From assembly GCF_054482595.1 (NCBI RefSeq), contig NZ_CM137008.1: a DNA stretch of 64,000 nucleotides; one strand, written 5' to 3'. Below are positions 1,453-14,074 of the stretch, piece after piece (positions within the stretch are counted from its first letter, which is position 1; every line of letters begins with the position of its first letter). The position numbers and the translations under genes were made by a program. The notes below the pieces were generated by a model, which did not search any database, had not been told where the DNA came from, and was given only the letters and a program-made list of their open reading frames with translations.

Positions 1453-2348
1453 AGATCCACCCCGTAAATCCAGTCTGTGTTTGTCAGGTCGAGTTTTGGT
1501 TTACTGGCTGTCACGACTGCCTGTTGCTTGTTACGGTTGATTTCGAGCTGGGTCCACTTGTCGCGGAGTTTGGCCGGACTCAGCACGTTACCGGACCAGA
1601 AGTTGTCCTGGCAGGCCCAGCGGAAAAGCACACACATATCGCGGTGGTTACGTCCGTCACGTTCACGCATCAGGCGGATATCGTTAGCCCACCCAGCAAA
1701 ATTCGGTTTTCTGGCTGATGGCGCGATGGTCTTCACCATGTCAAACATCCACTCTGCGGCGGTCAGGTCTTCTGCTGTTCCCCACTTGCTGCCGCTCTGA
1801 ATTGCAGCATCCGGTTTAACCACAGAAAGATCGTTTTCTGGCTGGTCAGAGGATTTGCCAGAATTCTCGGACGAATAATCTTTTCTTTTTTCTTTTGTAA
1901 TAGTGTCTTTTGTGTCCCCCTGTTTTGAGGGATAGCAATCCCCCAATTTGAGGGATGTTTTATCCCTCGTTTTAGGGGATTTTCCCTCGTTTTGAGGGAT
2001 ACACCATTCTGAGATGTTTTTATTTGGTCCAAACATGCCGCCTTGCTGCTTGATAATATTCATTCTGACGAGTTCTAACTTGGCTTCATTGCACCGTTTG
2101 ACAGGTAACTTTGTAATCTCGCTAAGTTGAGAATCGGTGATTCTGTCCATTGGTTTATTCCACCCATAGGTTTTACGCAGAATGGCAAGCAGCACTTTAA
2201 ACTGTCGCTTGGTCAGATCTGCGCCCGAATAAGCCTCAAGCAGCATATTTGATAGTCTGGCGTAACCATCATCGAGATCTGCCACATTACGCTCCTGTCC
2301 GGCAAAGTTACCTCTGCCGAAGTTGAGTATTTTTGCTGTATTTGTCAT
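1449..2348 (-). CDS. O: Replication initiator O, 299 aa
   Basis: Translation MTNTAKILNFGRGNFAGQERNV... near-identical to lambda O as recalled; contains ori iterons. Confidence 0.95.
   Translation of the reverse strand: MTNTAKILNFGRGNFAGQERNVADLDDGYARLSNMLLEAYSGADLTKRQFKVLLAILRKTYGWNKPMDRITDSQLSEITKLPVKRCNEAKLELVRMNIIKQQGGMFGPNKNISEWCIPQNEGKSPKTRDKTSLKLGDCYPSKQGDTKDTITKEKRKDYSSENSGKSSDQPENDLSVVKPDAAIQSGSKWGTAEDLTAAEWMFDMVKTIAPSARKPNFAGWANDIRLMRERDGRNHRDMCVLFRWACQDNFWSGNVLSPAKLRDKWTQLEINRNKQQAVVTASKPKLDLTNTDWIYGVDL
1870..2001. repeat. ori-lambda: four tandem iterons plus adjacent AT-rich region inside O
   Basis: Four ~19-bp repeats (TCCCTC-N-GAGGGA cores) at ~1912-2001, with an A/T-rich tract at 1870-1910. 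Confidence 0.85.
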
Positions 2349-2359
2349 AATGACTCCTG

Positions 2360-2434
2360 TGGATTGATCCAGTAATTCCCTCAGAATTGCATATCAATTT
2401 GCTTAGAGTCCCCGGCGGCCACCGGGGATTTTTT
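2360..2434 (+). ncRNA. oop: oop-like antisense RNA with its terminator (to), overlapping cII 3' end
   Basis: Plus-strand hairpin CCCCGG-CGGCCA-CCGGGG then T6 at 2410-2434, opposite to cII/O; position and sequence pattern resemble lambda oop as recalled; 5' end approximate. Confidence 0.6.
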
Positions 2435-2677
2435 CTTTGTGATTCCATCAAGCGCATACTTAAAAGCCCTGCTAATTGGACTGATGTCTGATGCCATTCC
2501 GAAAGCACACAAGACCGAAGCAATAAACCGCCAGTCCGTTCTGCTTATCTTCGATTCATGACAGCCAATCATCTTTGCCAGACCGCGCTGGGTAATAGTT
2601 GACAGATTGATAAGTAAATCTGTTTCTGCGCGATCAACGTCACGCTGTGATAGTTTGCTGTAACTTGTTCTTTCCAT
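2381..2677 (-). CDS. cII: CII-like transcriptional activator (98 aa)
   Basis: C-terminus ...KKKSPVAAGDSKQIDMQF resembles lambda CII ...KKRPAATERSEQIQMEF; HTH-like centre; lambda-order position between cro and O. Confidence 0.85.
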   Translation of the reverse strand: MERTSYSKLSQRDVDRAETDLLINLSTITQRGLAKMIGCHESKISRTDWRFIASVLCAFGMASDISPISRAFKYALDGITKKKSPVAAGDSKQIDMQF

Positions 2678-2762
2678 TTCTTAAGATTTCCAATAGTGAA
2701 TAGTTAGTTGAAAGGTATGCGTGGAAACGCATATGGCCTTAGTTGGTCAGATATCTTGGGAC

Positions 2763-2809
2763 TCGCTTTTCAGCGACGTAGGACGAATGTCCGTTGTTAC
2801 AAAGAGCGG
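2763..2809 (-). promoter_or_regulatory. nutR-like site (boxA CGCTCTTTGTAACAAC, boxB UCGCU-GAAA-AGCGA) on pR transcript
   Basis: Minus-strand boxA-like element followed by 5-bp stem/GAAA loop hairpin; near-identical architecture to the nutL candidate at 5263-5309. Confidence 0.5.
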
Positions 2810-2815
2810 GGTTAC

Positions 2816-3043
2816 TTATGCTGCCAGAAGGTTCTTTTTGCTTATTTCAAGCAATTCGCTTGCTTGATATTTGCCACCAGAAATCTCTTCGATTTTTGAG
2901 GCGTATTTCGTTTTCCCAAAAAACTCAGTCTTAGGGAGGAAGCCGTTTTTGAGCCACTTATAGACAGCCCTTTCGCTAACTCCACAAGCCTTCGCAACTT
3001 CAGGGATGCCGACACCTTTAATCGGCTCATCAAGATTTTGCAT
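2816..3043 (-). CDS. cro: Cro-like HTH repressor (75 aa)
   Basis: Small ORF divergent from cI with HTH motif (VAKACGVSERAVYKWLKNG); not lambda Cro sequence. Confidence 0.8.
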   Translation of the reverse strand: MQNLDEPIKGVGIPEVAKACGVSERAVYKWLKNGFLPKTEFFGKTKYASKIEEISGGKYQASELLEISKKNLLAA

Positions 3044-3122
3044 AGGAATATCCCTTTTTCGTACTTTTAGTACGCATTATGGTTGAACTGAAAGTTTTTG
3101 CAAGTGCTTTAGTATCGTACTC
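3044..3122. promoter_or_regulatory. oR-type operator/promoter region (divergent pR/pRM) between cro and cI
   Basis: 79-bp divergent intergenic region with palindromes GTACTTTTAGTAC (3061-3073) and AGTATCGTACT (3110-3120) and motif TTATGGTT also present near the pL region. Confidence 0.6.
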
Positions 3123-3830: not shown

Positions 3831-3953
3831 CTTCAAGTACGCGACAAGCCCCGTCCTTCAGGGCGTGGAGGATGTCAAAATAACTTTAAATAACACACCA
3901 CCAACATTTAACACATTGAATTAAAAAACCTACAATATTTGATGAGAGGCGTT

Positions 3954-4274
3954 ATGGAACCGGTCAAAATTAAACCATCTGTGGATTATATTGAAACCTA
4001 TGCGGACTTCGCTAGTTTTGCTCCACTACCGGGAGCGGAAAAAAATCTCATTTGTATACATTTTATCGCAAACAAGTCAATACCTGCGGTACTATCCCAA
4101 AATGATATACCAGATCAACCAGGTAGAGCGAATATGCAGATAGGCTCTGTAAATGAACTCAATCAGCAATGCACTGTGATAATGCCAATGGCACAACTAA
4201 AGGCTCTTCAGGAGAATATAGTTCTTCTTTTCGAACAATTAGAGGCACAAAACTCTAATGGAGCGAAGTCGTAA
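3954..4274 (+). CDS. Hypothetical protein ORF-A (~106 aa), first gene of cassette in rexA position
   Basis: ORF with GAGG Shine-Dalgarno 5 nt before ATG 3954 (alternative starts 3939/3942); stop overlaps ORF-B start (TAATG); no family recognised. Confidence 0.6.
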   Translation: MEPVKIKPSVDYIETYADFASFAPLPGAEKNLICIHFIANKSIPAVLSQNDIPDQPGRANMQIGSVNELNQQCTVIMPMAQLKALQENIVLLFEQLEAQNSNGAKS

Positions 4275-6907: not shown

Positions 6908-6979
6908 GCGCGGCGTTACCGCATACCAATAACGCTTCACTCGAGGCGTTTTTCGTTATGTATAAATAAGGAGCACACC

Positions 6980-7144
6980 ATGCAATATGCCATTGCAGGG
7001 TGGCCTGTTGCTGGCTGCCCTTCCGAATCTTTACTTGAACGAATCACCCGTAAATTACGTGACGGATGGAAACGCCTTATCGACATACTTAATCAGCCAG
7101 GAGTCCCAAAAAATGGATCAAACACTTATGGCTATCCAGACTAA
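6980..7144 (+). CDS. cIII: CIII (FtsH inhibitor, 54 aa)
   Basis: Translation [54 protein letters not shown] matches lambda CIII; below ORF-track size cutoff. Confidence 0.9.
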   Translation: MQYAIAGWPVAGCPSESLLERITRKLRDGWKRLIDILNQPGVPKNGSNTYGYPD

Positions 7145-7256
7145 ATTCACTATCGCCACTTTTATTGGCGATGAAAAGATGTTTCGTGAGGCCGTCGACG
7201 CTTATAAAAAATGGATATTAATACTGAAACTGAGATCAAGCAAAAGCATTCACTAA
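7113..7256 (+). CDS. kil: Kil (FtsZ-targeting host killing peptide, 47 aa)
   Basis: [47 protein letters not shown] matches lambda Kil; overlaps cIII and gam. Confidence 0.85.
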
Positions 7257-7627
7257 CCCCCTTTCCTGTTTTCCTAATCAGCCCGGCATTTCGCGGGCGA
7301 TATTTTCACAGCTATTTCAGGAGTTCAGCCATGAACGCTTATTACATTCAGGATCGTCTTGAGGCTCAGAGCTGGACGCGTCACTACCAGCAGATCGCCC
7401 GTGAAGAGAAAGAGGCAGAACTGGCAGACGACATGGAAAAAGGTCTGCCCCAGCACCTGTTTGAATCACTCTGCATCGATCATTTACAACGCCACGGGGC
7501 CAGCAAAAAAGCCATTACCCGTGCGTTTGATGACGATGTTGAGTTTCAGGAGCGCATGGCAGAACACATCCGGTACATGGTTGAAACCATTGCTCACCAC
7601 CAGGTTGATATTGATTCAGAGGTATAA
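7211..7627 (+). CDS. gam: Gam (RecBCD inhibitor), 138 aa long form
   Basis: Translation near-identical to lambda Gam as recalled. Confidence 0.95.
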
Positions 7628-7632
7628 AACGG

Positions 7633-8418
7633 ATGAGTACAGCACTCGCAACGCTGGCTGGGAAGCTGGCTGAACGCGTCGGCATGGATTCTGTCGACCC
7701 ACAGGAACTGATCACCACTCTTCGCCAGACGGCATTTAAAGGTGATGCCAGCGATGCGCAGTTCATCGCATTGCTGATCGTCGCCAACCAGTACGGCCTT
7801 AATCCGTGGACGAAAGAAATTTACGCCTTCCCTGACAAGCAGAACGGCATCGTTCCGGTGGTGGGCGTTGATGGCTGGTCCCGTATCATCAATGAAAACC
7901 AGCAGTTTGATGGCATGGACTTTGAGCAGGACAATGAATCCTGCACATGCCGGATTTACCGCAAGGACCGCAATCATCCGATCTGCGTTACCGAGTGGAT
8001 GGATGAATGCCGCCGCGAACCATTCAAAACCCGCGAAGGCAGAGAAATCACGGGGCCGTGGCAGTCGCATCCCAAACGGATGTTACGGCATAAAGCCATG
8101 ATTCAGTGTGCCCGTCTCGCCTTCGGATTTGCTGGTATCTATGACAAGGATGAAGCCGAGCGCATTGTCGAAAATACCGCATACACTGCAGAACGTCAGC
8201 CGGAACGCGACATCACTCCGGTTAACGATGAAACCATGCAGGAGATTAACACTCTGCTGATTGCCCTGGATAAAACATGGGATGACGACTTATTGCCGCT
8301 CTGTTCCCAGATATTTCGCCGCGACATTCGAGCATCGTCAGAACTGACACAGGCCGAAGCAGTGAAAGCTCTTGGATTCCTGAAACAGAAAGCCACTGAG
8401 CAGAAGGTGGCAGCATGA
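7633..8418 (+). CDS. bet: Bet (Red beta single-strand annealing protein), 261 aa
   Basis: Translation matches lambda Bet as recalled. Confidence 0.95.
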
Positions 8419-9095
8419 CACCGGACATTATCCTGCAGCGTACCGGGATCGACGTGAGAGCTGTCGAACAGGGGGATGATGCGTGGCACAAATTACGGCT
8501 CGGCGTCATCACCGCTTCAGAGGTTCACAATGTGATAGCAAAACCCCGCTCCGGAAAGAAATGGCCTGACATGAAAATGTCCTACTTCCACACCCTGCTT
8601 GCCGAGGTTTGCACCGGTGTGGCTCCGGAAGTTAACGCTAAGGCGCTGGCCTGGGGAAAACAGTACGAGAACGACGCCAGAGCCCTCTTTGAGTTCACTT
8701 CCGGCGTGAATGTTACTGAATCCCCGATCATCTATCGCGACGAAAGTATGCGCACCGCCTGCTCTCCCGATGGTTTATGCAGTGACGGCAACGGCCTTGA
8801 ACTGAAATGCCCGTTTACCTCCCGGGATTTCATGAAGTTCCGGCTCGGTGGTTTCGAGGCCATAAAGTCGGCTTACATGGCCCAGGTGCAGTACAGCATG
8901 TGGGTGACGCGAAAAGATGCCTGGTACTTTGCCAACTATGACCCGCGCATGAAGCGTGAAGGCCTGCATTATGTCGTGATTGAGCGGAATGAAAAGTACA
9001 TGGCGAGTTTTGACGAGATGGTGCCGGAGTTCATCGAAAAAATGGACGAGGCACTGGCTGAAATTGGTTTTGTATTTGGGGAGCAATGGCGATGA
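8415..9095 (+). CDS. exo: Exo (Red alpha 5'-3' exonuclease), 226 aa
   Basis: Translation matches lambda Exo as recalled. Confidence 0.95.
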
Positions 9096-9274
9096 CGCAT
9101 CCTCACGATAATATCCGGGTAGGCGCAATCACTTTCGTCTACTCCGTTACAAAGCGAGGCTGGGTATTTCCCGGCCTTTCTGTTATCAGAAATCCACTGA
9201 AAGCACAGCGGCTGGCTGAGGAGATAAATAATAAACGGGGAGCTGTATGCACAAAGCATCTCCCGTTGAGTTAA
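9086..9274 (+). CDS. lambda orf60a-like small protein (62 aa)
   Basis: Matches recalled lambda orf60a; overlaps exo 3' end. Confidence 0.7.
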
Positions 9275-9438
9275 GAACGAGTATCGAGATGGCACATAGC
9301 CTCGCTCAAATTGGAGTCAGGTTTGTGCCAATACCAGTAGAAACAGACGAAGAATTTCATACGTTAGCCGCATCCCTTTCACAAAAGCTGGAAATGATGG
9401 TGGCGAAAGCAGAAGCAGATGAGAGAGACCAGGTATGA
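9247..9438 (+). CDS. lambda orf63-like small protein (63 aa)
   Basis: Matches recalled lambda orf63. Confidence 0.7.
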   Translation: MHKASPVELRTSIEMAHSLAQIGVRFVPIPVETDEEFHTLAASLSQKLEMMVAKAEADERDQV

Positions 9439-9518
9439 CAACCACGGAATGCATTTTTCTGGCAGCGGGCTTCATATTCTGTGTGCTTATGCTTGCCGAC
9501 ATGGGACTTGTTCAATGA
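9435..9518 (+). CDS. Small hydrophobic peptide (27 aa, MTTTECIFLAAGFIFCVLMLADMGLVQ), ATGA-coupled on both sides
   Basis: Read from sequence: ATG overlaps orf63 stop (ATGA), stop overlaps next gene start (ATGA); single predicted TM helix; below ORF-track cutoff. Confidence 0.4.
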   Translation: MTTTECIFLAAGFIFCVLMLADMGLVQ

Positions 9519-9730
9519 CACCTCAGCAGGAAAACGCCCTTCGCAGTATTGCCCGTCAGGCTAATTCTGAAATCAAAAAAGCCAGACAGCAGTTTCCGGA
9601 TAAAAACGTCGATGACATTTGCCGTAGCGTACTGAAGAAGCACCGCGAAACGGTAACGCTGATGGGATTCACACCGACTCATTTAAGCCTGGCGATCGGC
9701 ATGTTAAACGGCGTCTTTAAGGAACGGTGA
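9515..9730 (+). CDS. lambda orf61-like small protein (71 aa from this start)
   Basis: In-frame ATG at 9515 within ORF 9419-9730; sequence MTPQQENALRSIARQ...; start choice uncertain. Confidence 0.6.
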   Translation: MTPQQENALRSIARQANSEIKKARQQFPDKNVDDICRSVLKKHRETVTLMGFTPTHLSLAIGMLNGVFKER

Positions 9731-9752
9731 GCATGAAAAACAAAATCATCAT

Positions 9753-9776
9753 GGAGCTACAGGCTCCTTTTTTATT
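9753..9776 (+). terminator. Weak intrinsic terminator-like hairpin inside the leftward operon
   Basis: GGAGC-TACAG-GCTCC followed by TTTTTT; only a 5-bp stem. Confidence 0.35.
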
Positions 9777-9828
9777 ATTCGCATTCACCCTCAAGCGTAT
9801 TAACCAACAATTCAGGGATTAATGAAAG

Positions 9829-10050
9829 ATGGCAGACATCATTGATTCAGCATCAGAAATTGAAGAATTACAGCGCAATACAGCAATAAAAATGCGTCGT
9901 CTGAACTACCAGACTATATCCGCCACTCATTGTTGTGAGTGTGGCGATCCCATAGATGAACGAAGACGCCTGGTCGTTCAGGGTTGTCGGACTTGTGCAA
10001 GTTGCCAGGAGGATCTGGAGCTTATCAGTAAACAGAGAGGTTCGAAGTGA
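9829..10050 (+). CDS. TraR/DksA-family C4 zinc-finger protein (73 aa)
   Basis: CxxC...CxxC motif (CCECGDPIDERRRLVVQGCRTCASCQ) typical of TraR/DksA-type phage proteins. Confidence 0.7.
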   Translation: MADIIDSASEIEELQRNTAIKMRRLNYQTISATHCCECGDPIDERRRLVVQGCRTCASCQEDLELISKQRGSK

Positions 10051-10454
10051 GCGAAATTAACTCTCAGGCACTGCGTGAAGCGGCAGAGAAAGCCGGTGAA
10101 GATAAGTGGCAGGCTAAAAAAATAAATGGTGATTTTTTCGTTATTCGTCACGGTAGTTATACAAGACAGCATGGCTACACATCGTATCAACCCATTGCGG
10201 AGATTGATTGTAAGCCAGTCCGGGATTTTGTTGCCAAGGCTAATCCGGCTACCGTGCTGGAATTACTGGATGAACTGGAAGCAGCAAAAAAGCGCATTGC
10301 AGAACTGGAAGCGCGGGAAATACTGCTCCCGGAACGTAGCAGCATGCTTCATCGAACAGATTTTCACGATGATTACCAAACGGTAATGGCATACAAAGTT
10401 TCTGAAGTCATCGATGCAATCCGCGCTACTGGCATTCGCATCAAAGGAGAGTGA
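10047..10454 (+). CDS. Ead/Ea22-like protein (135 aa), shortened/mosaic
   Basis: N-terminus MSEINSQALREAAE and C-terminus ...ATGIRIKGE as in lambda Ea22 family; coiled-coil motif LELLDELEAAKKRIAELEARE. Confidence 0.7.
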   Translation: MSEINSQALREAAEKAGEDKWQAKKINGDFFVIRHGSYTRQHGYTSYQPIAEIDCKPVRDFVAKANPATVLELLDELEAAKKRIAELEAREILLPERSSMLHRTDFHDDYQTVMAYKVSEVIDAIRATGIRIKGE

Positions 10455-10455
10455 G

Positions 10456-11211
10456 ATGATTCACTACCACGGTGGGCCTATTACTCCTGATACGTGCGCA
10501 ATGAGGGCATGGAAAGGGCGACATGCGTTTATCAGTTTTGCGCATTCAGGCCAGATCAATCTCGCGGCTGAATACTGTCAGTCGTTCGCGCTGGACAACG
10601 GTGCATTCACCGCCTGGAAAGCAGCTGGCAAAAACAAAATCGACTGGAGCGATTACTACGAGTTTGTTGCTCGCTGGAAGAATCACCCAGGATTCGATTT
10701 TGCCATTATCCCGGATATTATTGATGGCGGAGAGGAGGAAAATGATGCGCTTCTGAATGAGTGGCCTCACGGAAAACTAGCTGGCGTTCCAGTGTGGCAC
10801 ATGAATGAAAGTGACGCGCGATTTATTCATTTGTGCAATGAGTTTCCGCGAGTGGCTATCGGTAGTTGTGGCGACTATGACGTAAAGCGCCCAACTCTTG
10901 CGGTAGCCAGAATGAAAGACCTGATTCGTCACATTGTTGATGGGCATGGTCAGCCGGTTACGAAACTACATGGATTGCGCATGTTAAATCCGCTGATATT
11001 CACAAAATTACCCTTAGCCAGCGCAGATAGTACGAACGTCGCTCGAAACATCGGTATTGATAAAGCCTGGTCTAGGGCTTATGCACCTGCAAGTAAAGAG
11101 ACACGCGCAGCATTAATGGTAGAACGGATTGAGGCACACAATAGCCCTGGTTCTCTTGCGTATTGTGAACAACGCGACCGCTTTGAAATGCAATTGCAAC
11201 TAGCAGTTTAA
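10456..11211 (+). CDS. TGT-fold protein, candidate DpdA-like 7-deazaguanine DNA transglycosylase (251 aa)
   Basis: Strong SD AGGAG before ATG 10456; ordered motifs LDNGAF, FAIIPD, VAIGSCG, HGLRM, ADSTNVARN resembling tRNA-guanine transglycosylase motifs DSGGYQ, MAFDE, AVGG, HYLMGVG, FDCVLPTRSGRN; no zinc-binding subdomain; assignment by eye. Confidence 0.55.
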   Translation: MIHYHGGPITPDTCAMRAWKGRHAFISFAHSGQINLAAEYCQSFALDNGAFTAWKAAGKNKIDWSDYYEFVARWKNHPGFDFAIIPDIIDGGEEENDALLNEWPHGKLAGVPVWHMNESDARFIHLCNEFPRVAIGSCGDYDVKRPTLAVARMKDLIRHIVDGHGQPVTKLHGLRMLNPLIFTKLPLASADSTNVARNIGIDKAWSRAYAPASKETRAALMVERIEAHNSPGSLAYCEQRDRFEMQLQLAV

Positions 11212-11221
11212 GGACTAACAA

Positions 11222-12019
11222 ATGACCACTATTACCAAAGAACGTATTGAATTGTTCATTAAAAATCCGCTTGAAAACGGACTTACTCGTGGCGAACAAA
11301 TGGAACTGGCACGAATTGCACTGGCATCACTGGAACGCGAACTGATTCGCCACGAGCATGCCAAATGGTCTGACTCCACATTTGGCTGCGTTGGCCCCAT
11401 TGGTCCACTGAAACACCTCTCAAAAGAGGCTCTGGAAGCCGCAGCCGAACCAGACGATCTCAGCGAGTGGGCTGATATGCATTTCCTGTTGTGGGATGCA
11501 CAGCGCCGTGCTGGCATCAGCGATGCTGAAATTACCGCTGCTATGGAAGATAAATTGAAGATCAACATGGAGCGCCAGTGGCCTGAACCAATAGATGGTG
11601 AGCCTCGCTTGCACATTAAAGAACCCGGCAACTCTCCGGTAATTCCGGATGGTTTATCCACGGTATGCGCTGAGGCTTATCAGGTTGTAGGAGTTATGGC
11701 AGATGCGCTTGGTGTATTCGGTGATGCAGCAGTACAGAAAGTTCTGGATAACCTGTCACAGCAAAAACTTGTTCACAGAGATGTGCTGCCGTTCTCGCTT
11801 CCGGTGACTCCGGATGGTTGGATAAGCTGTAGTGAGCGAATGCCGAAAGAAACGGGTGACATTATTGTTGTTTCGGATGGCATTGTAATGTCCGGGATTT
11901 CTTATTCTCGTCGTGACGGGTTCTATATAGCCGCATTGGAGTACGACGACGATGAGCCAATTGGCGGTGTAACCCACTGGATGCCTCTACCAGAACCGCC
12001 TCGATTAAAGGAGCTATAA
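11222..12019 (+). CDS. Phage protein with N-terminal dATP/dGTP pyrophosphohydrolase-like (DUF550-like) region and C-terminal DUF551-like region (265 aa)
   Basis: C-terminal motif PDGWISCSERMPKE...THWMPLPEPP typical of DUF551; N-terminal acidic region (EWADMHFLLWDAQRR) resembles MazG-like nucleotide pyrophosphohydrolases; recalled, not searched. Confidence 0.6.
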   Translation: MTTITKERIELFIKNPLENGLTRGEQMELARIALASLERELIRHEHAKWSDSTFGCVGPIGPLKHLSKEALEAAAEPDDLSEWADMHFLLWDAQRRAGISDAEITAAMEDKLKINMERQWPEPIDGEPRLHIKEPGNSPVIPDGLSTVCAEAYQVVGVMADALGVFGDAAVQKVLDNLSQQKLVHRDVLPFSLPVTPDGWISCSERMPKETGDIIVVSDGIVMSGISYSRRDGFYIAALEYDDDEPIGGVTHWMPLPEPPRLKEL

Positions 12020-12133: not shown

Positions 12134-12415
12134 ATGAGCATTCATGATTTGTGTGAAGATCAAGAGCAATGGGCTATGCAGACCCTTATGGGATCAGGAG
12201 TTCTTGCAAGGTGCAGAATCCATAACGATGTAATTTTAGACAGCGGAAATGATGCTTCTTCTGCTTATAAATTAGGAACTTACCTATATCAAAAAGATAA
12301 TAGCTGCAACTTATTCAATACTCTTACTGAAGCCCGCGACGCAATAAAGGATGCATATGAATCGTATTGTGGGATCGATGATTGCCCACAATGCTCAAAA
12401 TACATTGACGATTAA
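12134..12415 (+). CDS. ea8.5: Ea8.5-like protein (93 aa from ATG 12134)
   Basis: SD GAGAGGTG upstream of ATG 12134 (ORF track starts at GTG 12116); C-terminal CPQC motif; lambda-like position and size. Confidence 0.6.
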   Translation: MSIHDLCEDQEQWAMQTLMGSGVLARCRIHNDVILDSGNDASSAYKLGTYLYQKDNSCNLFNTLTEARDAIKDAYESYCGIDDCPQCSKYIDD

Positions 12416-12503
12416 TAATATGAACAAGTAACTATCCTCGCACTCGCGGGGATTTCTTTTATCTGAACTCGCTACGGCGAGTTTTGTTTTATGGAGATGA
12501 TAA

Positions 12504-12671
12504 ATGCACTTCCGAGTTACAGGTGAATGGAATGGAGAACCATTCAACAGAGTTATCGAAGCCGAGAACATCAGCGACTGCTATGACCACTGGATGCTGT
12601 GGGCGCAGATAGCACATGCAGACGTAACCAATATTCGAATTGAAGAACTGAAAGAACACCAAGCCGCCTGA
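12504..12671 (+). CDS. lambda orf55-like protein (55 aa)
   Basis: Translation MHFRVTGEWNGEPFNRVIEAENISDCYDHWMLWAQIAHADVTNIRIEELKEHQAA; followed by hairpin and T-run; below ORF-track cutoff. Confidence 0.6.
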   Translation: MHFRVTGEWNGEPFNRVIEAENISDCYDHWMLWAQIAHADVTNIRIEELKEHQAA

Positions 12672-12710
12672 TGGCGGTTTTTTCTTGCGTGTAATTGCGG
12701 AGACTTTGCG

Positions 12711-12929
12711 ATGTACTTGACACTTCAGGAGTGGAACGCACGCCAGCGACGCCCAAGAAGCCTTGAAACAGTTCGTCGATGGGTACGCGAGTGCAGGATA
12801 TTCCCTCCTCCGGTTAAGGATGGAAGAGAGTATCTGTTCCACGAATCAGCGGTAAAGGTTGACTTAAATCGACCAGTAACAGGTAGCCTTTTGAAGAGGA
12901 TCAGAAATGGGAAGAAGGCGAAGTCATGA
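12711..12929 (+). CDS. xis: Excisionase Xis (72 aa)
   Basis: Translation MYLTLQEWNARQRRPRSLETVRRWVRECRIFPPPVKDGREYLFHESAVKVDLNRPVTGSLLKRIRNGKKAKS matches lambda Xis. Confidence 0.95.
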   Translation: MYLTLQEWNARQRRPRSLETVRRWVRECRIFPPPVKDGREYLFHESAVKVDLNRPVTGSLLKRIRNGKKAKS

Positions 12930-13980
12930 GCGCCGGGATTTACCCCCTAACCTTTATATAAGAAACAATGGATATTACTGCTACAGGGACCCAAGGACGG
13001 GTAAAGAGTTTGGATTAGGCCGAGACAGGAGGATAGCAATCACTGAAGCAATACAGGCCAATATTGAGTTACTCTCAGACAGCGGACGCAAATCACTGAT
13101 AGACAGAATTAAAGGCGGTGACGCAATCACTCTTCATGTGTGGCTTGACCGATATGAAACAATCCTCACCGAAAGGGGGATCAGGCCGAAAACTCTACTC
13201 GACTACGCCAGCAAAATCAGGGCAATCCGAAGAAAATTGCCGGACAAACCGCTCACTGACATATCAACGAAAGAAGTGGCAGCAATGCTAAACACCTACG
13301 TAGCAGAAGGTAAAGCAGCTTCCGCAAAATTAATCAGGTCAACCCTTGTTGACGTTTTTCGTGAAGCAATAGCCGAGGGGCATGTGGCAACGAATCCGGT
13401 AACAGCAACCCGTACAGCAAAGTCAGAAGTAAGGCGCTCAAGGCTGACAGCTAATGAGTATGTCGAGATTTACCATGCAGCCGAACCTCTCCCTATCTGG
13501 CTAAGGCTGGCGATGGATTTGGCCGTCGTTACAGGGCAGAGAGTCGGCGATTTGTGCAGAATGAAATGGTCAGACATAAACGACAACCATCTTCACATTA
13601 AACAGAGTAAAACAGGGGCTAAACTCGCCATTCCGCTAACGCTAACGATTGACGCGCTCAATATCTCATTGGCTGATACACTACAGAAATGCAGGGAGGC
13701 CAGCAGCAGTGAAACTATAATCGCATCAAAGCATCACGATCCGCTTTCCCCGAAAACAGTATCAAAGTATTTTACAAAGGCGAGAAATGCATCTGGCCTC
13801 TCATTTGATGGAAACCCGCCAACATTCCATGAACTGCGTAGCCTGTCAGCGAGGCTATACCGGAACCAGATTGGCGATAAGTTTGCTCAACGTCTTCTCG
13901 GGCATAAATCAGATTCAATGGCGGCGCGGTATAGGGACAGCCGTGGACGGGAATGGGACAAAATTGAAATCGACAAATGA
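12907..13980 (+). CDS. int: Tyrosine integrase Int (357 aa), lambda-family
   Basis: N-terminus MGRRRSHERRDLPPNLYIRNNGYYCYRDPRTGKEFGLGRDRRIAITEAIQANIEL and C-terminal RSLSARLY...HLLGHKSD...REWDKIEI as in lambda Int; central domain divergent. Confidence 0.95.
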   Translation: MGRRRSHERRDLPPNLYIRNNGYYCYRDPRTGKEFGLGRDRRIAITEAIQANIELLSDSGRKSLIDRIKGGDAITLHVWLDRYETILTERGIRPKTLLDYASKIRAIRRKLPDKPLTDISTKEVAAMLNTYVAEGKAASAKLIRSTLVDVFREAIAEGHVATNPVTATRTAKSEVRRSRLTANEYVEIYHAAEPLPIWLRLAMDLAVVTGQRVGDLCRMKWSDINDNHLHIKQSKTGAKLAIPLTLTIDALNISLADTLQKCREASSSETIIASKHHDPLSPKTVSKYFTKARNASGLSFDGNPPTFHELRSLSARLYRNQIGDKFAQRLLGHKSDSMAARYRDSRGREWDKIEIDK

Positions 13981-14074
13981 TTTTATTTTGACTAATAATG
14001 ACCTACTTACATTAATTTACTGATAATTAAAGAGATTTTAAATATACAACTTATTCACCTTAAGTGCACCGACC
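13981..14074. other. attL-type prophage/host junction region (P' arm with arm-type Int sites; core not resolved)
   Basis: TTTTGACTAATAATGACC resembles lambda P' arm-type sites as recalled; lies between int stop and host torS start. Confidence 0.4.

What the first reader, a model, noticed from the sequence alone, without database searches (positions are those of the whole stretch)
10047..10454. Shortened Ea22-like gene whose stop abuts the start of the TGT-fold gene
The ORF keeps lambda Ea22-like N- and C-termini but is only 135 aa with a different middle (coiled-coil LELLDELEAAKKRIAELEARE), and its stop (10452..10454) is immediately followed by the ATG of the TGT-fold gene at 10456. This looks like a recombination scar where cargo was inserted into the ea22 region.
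Basis: partly seen in the sequence, partly recalled or inferred. Interest (0 to 1): 0.25.

Follow-up and report, generated by a model that had tools for sequence, protein, structure and literature searches.

The report
Intact short Ea22 allele, cassette slot
The 135-codon gene is an intact, common short version of the mosaic phage protein Ea22, and its conserved last codons double as the ribosome-binding site for whichever accessory gene occupies the slot just downstream; this is ordinary lambda-type phage mosaicism, not a damage scar.

Summary
ORF 10047..10454 (+) encodes 135 aa. Its GTG start overlaps the stop of a TraR/orf73-like gene, and its TGA (10452-10454) lies one base before the ATG (10456) of a 251-aa TGT-like gene. 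Only the first 42 nt and the last 26 nt (plus 3 nt past the stop) match lambda ea22.

The gene is not a truncated remnant:
- The exact protein is RefSeq WP_001289864.1 "ead/Ea22-like family protein".
- It matches phrog_1667 end to end and occurs in 247 of 5426 complete E. coli genomes.
- A gap-free 135-aa Enterobacter ortholog indicates purifying selection (omega about 0.08).

Ea22 alleles range from 122 to 232 aa, mostly through coiled-coil inserts.

The TGT-like gene is a clean 766-nt cassette (10456..11221). Other phages with the same 135-aa allele have this slot empty or filled with a 63-aa or 69-aa ORF.

The tail AAAGGAGAGTGA-N-ATG looks like a portable Shine-Dalgarno/stop/start linker. 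In 117 of 120 viral contigs a start codon follows at +2, across 22 upstream and 31 downstream gene clusters.

Ea22 mosaicism is already published. Interest is low.

The parts
9829..10050 (+). TraR/DksA-type zinc-finger gene (lambda orf73-like). Its TGA overlaps the GTG start of the Ea22-like gene (GTGA).
   Evidence: Pfam zf-dskA_traR 8.4e-9 and phrog_54. RefSeq calls it 'TraR/DksA family transcriptional regulator'. It is 96.5% identical to lambda across 9800-10088.
10047..10454 (+). Intact 135-aa Ead/Ea22-like gene (the finding).
   Evidence: Pfam PF13935 at 64.1 bits against a cutoff of 27. phrog_1667 matches 1-135 to 1-133/133, E=1.7e-56. The protein is WP_001289864.1 and the exact sequence is on >=1000 contigs. 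It is present in 247/5426 complete E. coli genomes.
10047..10088 (+). 5' cap: 42 nt (MSEINSQALREAAE) identical to lambda ea22. This is the commonest left breakpoint inside the gene.
   Evidence: Many E. coli genomes match only gene positions 1-42/47.
10089..10236 (+). N-domain segment (aa 15-63) that is absent from lambda Ea22. It is distantly homologous to the extra N-terminal segment of Stx-phage Ea22.
   Evidence: 40% identity over 99 aa to 933W L0069, E=8e-12. It is invariant across the A2 alignment. The AF2 model has low confidence here.
10237..10312 (+). Start of the coiled coil / hinge (NPATVLELLDELEAAKKRIAELEA). It contains two 11-nt direct repeats GAACTGGAAGC at 10272-10282 and 10302-10312. 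It is an internal recombination and indel hot spot.
   Evidence: Repeats found. BLAST breakpoints fall at 10237-10280, 10275-10312 and 10302. Longer alleles carry inserts here, and 125-aa alleles lack exactly the 10 aa between the repeats.
10313..10428 (+). Small C-terminal domain (predicted beta-beta-alpha), unrelated to the lambda Ea22 CTD. It is shared with longer alleles, for example the 218-aa allele.
   Evidence: 82% identity over 66 aa to L005. AF2 pLDDT is 67-82 with E98-102, E111-115 and H118-127. No PDB match.
10429..10459 (+). Portable junction linker: ...GGCATTCGCATCAAAGGAGAGTGA-G-ATGA. This spans the GIRIKGE codons, an AAGGAG Shine-Dalgarno at 10444-10449, the stop, a 1-nt spacer and the next start.
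   Evidence: 100% identical to lambda across 10429-10457. Homology to other genomes starts at 10421-10429 or ends at 10458-10459. In IMG/VR, 117/121 hits read AAAGGAGAGTGA and 117/120 have a start codon at +2.
10456..11221 (+). 766-nt single-gene cassette. It holds the 251-aa TGT/DpdA/Cap10-like TIM-barrel ORF (10456..11211) plus 10 nt carrying its own SD (TAAGGA) for the next gene. It is flanked by ATGA/ATGA.
11222..12019 (+). 265-aa dATP/dGTP pyrophosphohydrolase (PF04447) + DUF551 gene. Its first ~38 codons (11222-11335) form a widely shared 5' cap that makes the right flank of the slot.
   Evidence: Pfam. Homology of S107 and AREA_494 ends at 11335. The same cap begins many downstream genes in IMG/VR.

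Best explanation
What it is. The ORF is an intact, functional short allele of the mosaic Ead/Ea22 family. These are early pL-operon accessory proteins of lambdoid phages. The allele sits in its canonical place in the exo-xis region of a lambda-like prophage integrated next to torS.

How it is built. It has five parts:
1. A universal 14-aa N-cap.
2. An N-domain that lambda lacks.
3. A minimal coiled coil of about 3 heptads.
4. A small C-terminal domain.
5. The universal ...GIRIKGE tail.

Origin of its length (inferred). The short length reflects the normal length polymorphism of the family, which comes from coiled-coil inserts and deletions at short repeats. It is not damage from a neighbouring insertion.

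The two conserved ends. At the 5' end, GTGA overlaps the upstream stop. At the 3' end, the codons AAA-GGA-GAG-TGA form the Shine-Dalgarno, stop and 1-nt spacer for the next cistron's ATG. That the geometry is conserved is shown. That it couples translation is inferred.

Cassette exchange (inferred). Because these roughly 30-40-nt stretches are nearly identical among otherwise unrelated alleles, they also serve as short homology patches. Through them genes are swapped as cassettes, plausibly by the phage's own Red/Rad52-type recombination.

The slot (shown). The slot just downstream is polymorphic. It can be empty or hold a 63-aa ORF, a 69-aa ORF, or (here) a 766-nt TGT-like gene cassette.

Protein function (inferred by homology only). 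By homology to lambda and Stx-phage Ea22, the protein would be an oligomeric factor that biases infection towards lysogeny through an unknown partner.
For: Family membership and intactness.

Purifying selection: the window gene and the gap-free 135-aa Enterobacter ortholog L129:3001-3408 give pN 0.20, pS 0.74, omega about 0.08.

Canonical position: the order exo, DUF1317, DUF1382, orf61-like, TraR, Ea22-like..., ea8.5, xis, int, torS. Lambda homology runs 6943-10088, 10429-10457 and 12369-14004.

Length polymorphism: alleles of 122-232 aa are aligned in A2, and the 125-aa alleles lack the 30 nt between the 11-nt repeats.

Independence of the two genes in complete E. coli genomes:
- 247 carry the allele.
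- 200 carry the TGT-like gene.
- About 114 carry both in this arrangement.

Empty and alternative fillings of the slot with the same flanks.

Linker: 117/121 hits read AAAGGAGAGTGA, 117/120 have a start codon at +2, and there are 22 upstream clusters, 31 downstream clusters and 66 combinations. The same junction ends non-Ea22 genes. The geometry is kept with different codons in Enterobacter (AAAGGGGAATGA-C-ATG; AAAGGAGAAGCATAATG) and in Salmonella S107 (AAGGGGGGGTGATG).

Transcription context: no promoter-like or + strand terminator-like site lies between 9767 and 11635, which fits one read-through transcript.

Literature: Ea22 is mosaic, pro-lysogenic and tetrameric, with a K/RGE terminal motif of 'unknown significance' (PMC7093339, PMC10834534).
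Against: - No expression, translation-coupling or recombination experiment was possible.
- The structural model of the 135-aa protein is poor (mean pLDDT 56), so the domain description rests mainly on alignment.
- K-G-E is kept at protein level even where codons differ, so a protein-level role for the tail is not excluded.
- The IMG/VR sample was selected by requiring ATTCGCATC upstream. It contains many closely related E. coli prophages, so its counts are not independent events.
- Synonymous sites in the Enterobacter comparison are near saturation, so omega is approximate.
- Whether the short coiled coil still supports the tetramer seen for lambda and P27 Ea22 is unknown.
Confidence: 0.85

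Rival explanations
1. One reading: a lambda-type ea22 was shortened, and its middle replaced, as a by-product of inserting the TGT-like cargo. On this view the ORF is a recombination scar.
For: Only the first 42 nt and the last 29 nt match lambda. The gene is 47 aa shorter than lambda Ea22. A cargo gene starts 1 nt after the stop.
Against: The same allele, 97-98% identical over its full length, lies next to empty or differently filled slots. It occurs in about 133 E. coli genomes without the TGT-like gene. It has a full-length PHROG match, a RefSeq identity and a conserved colinear ortholog under purifying selection. The TGT-like gene also follows other Ea22 alleles.
Confidence: 0.04
2. The Ea22-like protein and the TGT-like enzyme are a functional pair. 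The tight stop-N-ATG coupling would exist to co-express an adaptor or oligomerisation subunit with the enzyme.
For: The two genes are translationally coupled. 128 of 200 E. coli TGT-like genes follow this same C-terminal half. In Salmonella phage S107 the TGT-like gene also overlaps the stop of an Ea22-like gene.
Against: The 135-aa allele is followed by at least four other states. The TGT-like gene follows at least three different Ea22 alleles. The same linker couples 31 unrelated downstream gene clusters. Position immediately after ea22 is the generic slot.
Confidence: 0.08
3. The conserved ...GIRIKGE end is kept for a protein-level reason, such as a C-terminal binding or degradation motif of Ea22. 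On this view it is not a ribosome-binding or recombination linker. This reading is not exclusive of the best explanation.
For: K-G-E is retained with synonymous codon changes in Enterobacter (AAA GGG GAA). The motif was noted across lambda and Stx Ea22 proteins (PMC7093339).
Against: Proteins unrelated to Ea22 also end in KGE-stop followed by N-ATG: 933W L0068, a 64-aa ORF, and IMG/VR upstream clusters 2, 4 and 9. 117/121 tails use one single codon set. Where extra codons follow KGE (KGEA-stop), the stop overlaps the next ATG so that the SD-to-start spacing is kept. Lambda, which lacks a downstream start, is a rare exception at 2/120.
Confidence: 0.2
4. The ORF is a decaying, non-functional remnant that merely stays open.
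For: No experimental function is known. The AF2 model is poor for residues 1-64.
Against: omega is about 0.08 over 134 codons with saturated synonymous sites. 42 columns are invariant across 36 alleles from Escherichia, Salmonella and Enterobacter. There are thousands of homologs.
Confidence: 0.03

Closest known systems
Bacteriophage lambda Ea22 (182 aa; J02459 29847-30395 complement)
   Same: Same locus: downstream of orf73/TraR, between exo and xis. The first 14 aa / 42 nt are identical, including the GTG start that overlaps the upstream stop. It shares the P-x-x-VLELLDE entry into the coiled coil. The last 8 aa / 26 nt plus 3 nt past the stop are identical. Both belong to Pfam PF13935.
   Different: Lambda lacks the aa 15-63 N-domain. 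It has a long coiled coil, more than half of the protein per PMC10834534. It has a different, NMR-solved CTD that this allele does not match. Lambda has no start codon after the stop (GATC). The window gene is coupled to a downstream cistron.
Stx-phage Ea22 variants V1-V3 (933W L0069, phi24B, P27; PMC7093339, PMC10834534)
   Same: Same mosaic architecture of N-cap, extra N-terminal segment, coiled coil, swappable CTD and K/RGE end. The N-terminal 99 aa are 40% identical to 933W V1, E=8e-12.
   Different: This allele is much shorter (135 versus 257 aa for V1). Its coiled coil is reduced to about 24 residues. Its CTD is different. It was not recognised as Ea22 in the published survey, which scored phiON-2011, P13363, P8983, P14437 and P13771 as lacking ea22. 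Those phages carry this allele at 99% identity.
Gene-boundary mosaicism of lambdoid phages. The named works are recalled from my own knowledge and were not retrieved here: modular evolution with short conserved boundary sequences (Susskind and Botstein; Juhala et al. 2000 on HK97/HK022; Clark et al. 2001 on HK620) and Red/Rad52-mediated relaxed homologous recombination (Martinsohn 2008; De Paepe 2014).
   Same: Homology breakpoints fall exactly at start/stop junctions and at short conserved stretches. Alternative genes lie between identical flanks. A phage-encoded Bet/Exo/Gam sits 1-3 kb upstream.
   Different: Nothing differs in kind. This locus is a particularly clean example, because the linker is at the same time the coding tail, the SD, the stop and the start.
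PHROG phrog_1667 / RefSeq WP_001289864.1 'ead/Ea22-like family protein'
   Same: Identical protein. The profile match is end to end, 1-135 against 1-133/133.
   Different: None. Function is listed as unknown.

Membership tests
Ead/Ea22-like family (Pfam PF13935 / IPR025153) | Significant match to the family HMM above the curated threshold | tested here: met
   PF13935 scores 64.1 bits against a cutoff of 27, E=2.6e-17, residues 2-109. All 120 listed homologs but one carry PF13935.
Ead/Ea22-like family (Pfam PF13935 / IPR025153) | Shared N-terminal segment (MSEINxQALREAAEKA) and entry into a central coiled coil (VLxLLDE) | tested here: met
   14/14 aa and 42/42 nt are identical to lambda, and VLELLDE is shared. 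Predicted helix 67-90.
Ead/Ea22-like family (Pfam PF13935 / IPR025153) | Long central coiled coil (more than half of lambda Ea22) that supports a tetramer | tested here: inconclusive
   Only about 24 residues of helix (67-90) remain, and longer alleles carry 28-150-aa inserts here. The oligomeric state cannot be tested with these tools.
Ead/Ea22-like family (Pfam PF13935 / IPR025153) | Terminal K/RGE motif | tested here: met
   The protein ends ...GIRIKGE.
Ead/Ea22-like family (Pfam PF13935 / IPR025153) | Location in the exo-xis (pL-operon) region, directly after the orf73/TraR gene | tested here: met
   Gene order in the identical RefSeq locus and colinearity with lambda. Some orthologs sit in the nin region instead.
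Ead/Ea22-like family (Pfam PF13935 / IPR025153) | Pro-lysogenic phenotype | not testable with these tools
   Known only for lambda and phi24B ea22 deletions (PMC7093339).
Lambda-type Ea22 specifically (lambda CTD fold) | C-terminal domain homologous to the NMR-solved lambda Ea22 CTD | tested here: not met
   There is no alignment beyond the last 8 aa. Neither the sequence nor the profile gives a PDB hit. Foldseek finds nothing (low-confidence model).
Truncated gene / recombination scar | Loss of colinearity with intact orthologs, relaxed selection, and occurrence tied to the neighbouring insertion | tested here: not met
   Full-length PHROG match. Gap-free ortholog with omega about 0.08. The allele is found with empty and differently filled slots.
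Lambdoid mosaic module junction (boundary/linker sequence) | Homology breakpoints at the gene junction, a short conserved linker, and alternative genes between the same flanks | tested here: met
   Breakpoints at 10455-10459. The linker 10429-10459 is shared with lambda and others. Four slot states are seen. There are 66 upstream/downstream combinations.
TGT superfamily (neighbour gene 10456..11211) | TGT-type TIM barrel, and a match to the TGT family HMM | tested here: inconclusive
   [not shown]

The most novel reading that the evidence does not exclude
The Ea22 tail may be more than an ordinary gene boundary. AAAGGAGAGTGA-N-ATG and the matching 5' caps of neighbouring genes could form a dedicated, reusable cassette-exchange site in lambdoid phages. 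Such a site would guarantee translation of any incoming promoter-less ORF and also supply the homology for Red-type recombination. That would make the ea22-downstream slot a hot spot for acquiring accessory or counter-defence genes such as the minimal TGT/DpdA/Cap10-like enzyme. It would also explain the K/RGE motif whose significance the Ea22 literature calls unknown.
Probability: 0.3. Interest if true: 0.4.

Novelty: already known. Interest (0 to 1): 0.12.

Why it matters
The finding matters little as a discovery. The gene is an annotated member of a published mosaic family, and gene-boundary mosaicism of lambdoid phages is textbook.

Three small points are useful:
1. The short 135-aa allele is a fourth Ea22 variant. 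A published survey scored it as 'no ea22' in O104:H4-type Stx2a phages.
2. The K/RGE terminal motif, whose significance is called unknown in the Ea22 literature, has a simple candidate explanation. Its codons are the Shine-Dalgarno of the next cistron and part of a shared recombination linker.
3. The slot behind ea22 gives clean empty/filled pairs, which helps delimit cargo genes such as the uncharacterised TGT-like enzyme.

Tried and rejected
Searches on the Ea22-like protein that gave nothing:
- The PDB sequence search with the protein and with the family profile gave only chance hits (E>=0.12).
- The AF2 model has mean pLDDT 56. Its Foldseek search gave no match below E=1.9 and was disregarded.
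- NCBIfam and PADLOC gave nothing for the Ea22-like, TGT-like or pyrophosphohydrolase proteins.

Searches on the TGT-like protein that gave nothing useful:
- Pfam at E<=10 and PDB sequence and profile searches gave nothing.
- Two literature searches for DpdA/7-deazaguanine in prophages or lambda-type phages found nothing about this 251-aa family.

Technical:
This biases the sample towards the E. coli-type tail.

Ideas considered and rejected:
- That the ORF is a pseudogene.
- That its start is mis-called. The GTG start and N-terminus are the same as in lambda ea22.
- That the 29-nt lambda match is chance (E=2e-8 in the pairwise search).

Full report
1. Observation

ORF listing and direct reading confirm a 135-codon ORF at 10047..10454 on the + strand.
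- Its GTG start overlaps the TGA of the upstream gene 9829..10050 (GTGA).
- Its TGA at 10452-10454 is followed by one G and then the ATG at 10456 of a 251-codon ORF (10456..11211).
- An AAGGAG motif at 10444-10449, inside the codons K-G-E, lies 6 nt upstream of that ATG.

RefSeq annotates an identical locus in E. coli EC5502 (NZ_CP092647.1, 100% over 1501 nt) in the same way. The CDS products in order are 'TraR/DksA family transcriptional regulator', 'ead/Ea22-like family protein' WP_001289864.1, then a 756-nt 'hypothetical protein' starting one base after the stop.

The locus is the left arm of a complete lambda-like prophage next to torS. The gene order is cIII, kil, gam, bet, exo, DUF1317, DUF1382, orf61-like, TraR, Ea22-like, TGT-like, pyrophosphohydrolase-DUF551, ea8.5, xis, int.

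BLASTP against lambda Ea22 (182 aa) aligns only two stretches. One is the first 14 residues plus a gapped VLELLDE. The other is the last 8 residues.

At nucleotide level the first 42 nt and the last 26 nt are identical, and the middle is unalignable.

Over the whole region, lambda homology runs in three blocks:
- 6943-10088 at 97.7%.
- A 29-nt island at 10429-10457 at 100%, E=2e-8.
- 12369-14004 at 79%.

3. The gene is intact, not truncated

- It passes Pfam PF13935 (64 bits against a cutoff of 27).
- It matches phrog_1667 from the first to the last profile position, 1-135 against 1-133/133, E=1.7e-56.
- The exact sequence is on at least 1000 contigs and is named 'MULTISPECIES: ead/Ea22-like family protein'.
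- It covers >=80% of the gene in 247 of 5426 complete E. coli genomes.
- A homolog search returns more than 5000 relatives. Full-coverage relatives range from 122 to 232 aa in Escherichia, Salmonella and Enterobacter.

Their alignment (A2) shows what varies. The N-terminal 76 residues and the last ~55 residues are colinear. Longer alleles carry inserts of 28 to ~150 residues of coiled coil between LLDE and LEAAxKRIAELE, and some of these inserts are lambda-like (RERNQQYIKRRDQENEDIALTVGKLRVELE).

Shorter alleles also exist:
- The 125-aa form lacks exactly the 10 residues between two 11-nt direct repeats, GAACTGGAAGC at 10272-10282 and 10302-10312.
- The 122-aa form lacks 13 residues of the N-domain.

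A 135-aa ortholog in an Enterobacter hormaechei prophage aligns without a single gap at 70% amino-acid identity. It gives pN=0.20 and pS=0.74, so omega is about 0.08. This value is approximate because synonymous sites are near saturation. That is the signature of an old gene under purifying selection.

It is therefore met.

4. Breakpoints

BLAST against phage and E. coli collections shows homology ending or starting at a few recurrent positions:
- 10046, the start codon.
- 10088-10093, after the N-cap. This is the commonest; K-12-type and 933W-type prophages share only TraR plus 42-47 nt.
- 10237-10312, the entry to the coiled coil and the two 11-nt repeats.
- 10421-10429.
- 10455-10459.

Examples:
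- Stx2a phages of the O104:H4 type (P13374, phiON-2011) share exactly 10046-10459 at 99%.
- E. coli A10 shares 10046-10280.
- E. coli AREA_494 shares 10275-11335, which is a 218-aa allele with the same CTD followed by the same TGT-like gene, but located in a nin region.
- Salmonella phage S107 shares 10455-11335, the TGT-like gene plus the cap of the next gene, at 82.7%.

The gene is thus a mosaic of about five modules. Both of its ends are module boundaries that coincide with start/stop overlaps.

5. The downstream slot

In IMG/VR contigs carrying the same 135-aa allele (97-98% identical over its full length), the slot has four states:
- In L110 and L115 the stop is followed after 1 nt by the pyrophosphohydrolase gene that sits at 11222 in the window.
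- In L077 it is followed by a 195-nt cassette holding a 63-aa ORF.
- In L078 it is followed by a 207-nt cassette holding a 69-aa ORF.
- In the window, L081 and L128 it is followed by the TGT-like gene.

Window 10046-10459 and 11222-11654 map to L110 8841-9254 and 9251-9683. These two ranges overlap by the four bases ATGA. The window therefore carries a precise 766-nt insertion (10456..11221) flanked by ATGA on each side.

Each cassette begins with its own ATG at +2 after the Ea22 stop. Each ends with its own SD in front of the conserved ATGACCACTATTACCAAAGAACG cap of the next gene.

The 'cargo insertion' idea therefore holds for the TGT-like gene. The Ea22-like gene is the same in empty and filled sites.

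In complete E. coli genomes the two genes are largely independent:
- 247 carry the allele.
- 200 carry the TGT-like gene.
- About 114 carry both in this arrangement.
- 128 carry the junction of this C-terminal half with the TGT-like gene.

6. The tail as a linker

A scan of viral contigs for ATTCGCATC-AAR-GGN-GAR-TRR gave 121 hits:
- 117 use the single codon set AAAGGAGAGTGA.
- 117 of the 120 hits with enough downstream sequence have ATG (109) or GTG (8) exactly at +2. About 5% would be expected for a fixed triplet.
- The hits pair 22 clusters of upstream proteins with 31 clusters of downstream proteins, in 66 combinations. Several of the upstream proteins have N-termini unrelated to Ea22.

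The same AAAGGAGAGTGA-N-ATG junction also ends non-Ea22 genes, such as 933W L0068 and a small ORF ending in NHLRTKGE.

The geometry survives where the codons differ:
- Enterobacter: AAAGGGGAATGA-C-ATG, and AAAGGAGAAGCATAATG.
- Salmonella S107: AAGGGGGGGTGATG.

Lambda itself is one of the rare exceptions, with GATC after the stop and a 191-nt gap before ea8.5.

I infer that the tail is kept mainly because it is the ribosome-binding site and coupling junction for the next cistron, and that its near-identity provides homology for cassette exchange. This offers an explanation for the K/RGE motif whose 'significance is unknown' according to PMC7093339. A protein-level role is not excluded.

7. What the protein probably does

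The literature describes Ea22 as follows (PMC7093339, PMC10834534):
- It is the largest exo-xis protein and is transcribed early.
- It favours lysogeny.
- It is tetrameric.
- It is explicitly mosaic, built of an N-terminal segment, an extra 63-aa segment in Stx variants, a coiled coil and unrelated CTDs.

The window protein's first 99 residues are 40% identical to 933W Ea22 V1, E=8e-12. Its CTD is shared at 82% with a 218-aa allele and is unrelated to the solved lambda CTD.

AF2 gave a weak model (pLDDT 56; residues 67-135 score about 70-80). It predicts helix 6-15, two short strands, helix 67-90 and a beta-beta-alpha end. Structure searches on it were uninformative.

Function is therefore inferred by family only: an early, probably oligomeric, pro-lysogenic accessory protein with an unknown partner. 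Neither the scan for promoter-like sites nor that for + strand terminator-like hairpins found anything between 9767 and 11635, which fits one read-through pL transcript.

8. Known or new

The gene is annotated, in a PHROG and in Pfam. Ea22 mosaicism and lambdoid gene-boundary mosaicism are established.

One discrepancy is worth recording. The survey in PMC10834534 reports no ea22 in eleven genomes, including phiON-2011, P13363, P8983, P14437 and P13771. Those five records carry this 135-aa allele at 99% identity. The translated search with lambda Ea22 probably missed it because only 14 + 8 residues match.

9. Verdict

- The 'shortened by cargo insertion / scar' reading is not supported for the gene.
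- The 'cargo at the junction' reading is supported for the neighbouring TGT-like gene.
- This is ordinary lambdoid mosaicism and of low interest.

Noticed in passing
[not shown]
   Followed up: partly
window 11222-12019 (+): A continuous 265-aa ORF combines a shared 38-codon N-terminal cap (MTTITKERIELFIKNPLENGLTRGEQMELARIALASLE), a PF04447 dATP/dGTP pyrophosphohydrolase (MazZ-like) domain and DUF551. PGAP splits the identical sequence in EC5502 into a partial pseudogene plus a CDS. The TGT-like gene and this gene are also adjacent in Salmonella phage S107, as orf43 and EaA.
   Followed up: partly
L001 (lambda J02459) 2345-2373, minus strand: Lambda itself is the exception to the family rule. 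After the ea22 stop it reads GATC instead of N-ATG, and a 191-nt non-coding gap precedes ea8.5. Only 2 of 120 viral contigs look like this. The 'scar' may therefore be in lambda rather than in this prophage.
   Followed up: partly
L002 (phage P13374) 3001-3414; also KU298437.1, HG803182.1, HG792103-5: O104:H4-type Stx2a phages were listed in PMC10834534 Table 1 as having no detectable ea22. They carry this 135-aa Ea22-like allele at 99% identity, in a P22-like early region after the anti-RecBCD and DUF2737 genes.
   Followed up: yes
L008 (933W AF125520) about 3834-4102, minus strand; L006 3255: The annotated gap between 933W L0069 (Ea22 V1) and L0068 holds an unannotated ORF of about 64 aa ending in ...NHLRTKGE-stop-T-ATG. 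L0068 also ends in KGE-stop-T-GTG. The AAAGGAGAGTGA-N-start junction is thus reused by several consecutive small genes unrelated to Ea22.
   Followed up: partly
window 10272-10282 and 10302-10312: Two exact 11-nt direct repeats, GAACTGGAAGC (coding ELEA), lie 30 nt apart. The 125-aa alleles (P0072, P0080) lack exactly the 10 residues between them, and several BLAST breakpoints fall on them.
   Followed up: yes
L005 (E. coli AREA_494) 1528-3095; L129, L132 (Enterobacter): Ea22-like genes, and the Ea22-like + TGT-like pair, also occur in the nin region between replication gene P and NinB/NinE/terminase. They are not confined to the exo-xis region, and they keep the same 4-nt start overlap and stop-N-ATG geometry there.
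   Followed up: no
window 9753-9767, 12434-12453, 12465-12484, 12661-12680 (+): Terminator-like hairpins bracket the TraR-to-ea8.5 block: one before the TraR gene and three after ea8.5. The region has 12 terminator-like sites against 3.8 expected. Their role under N antitermination was not examined.
   Followed up: no
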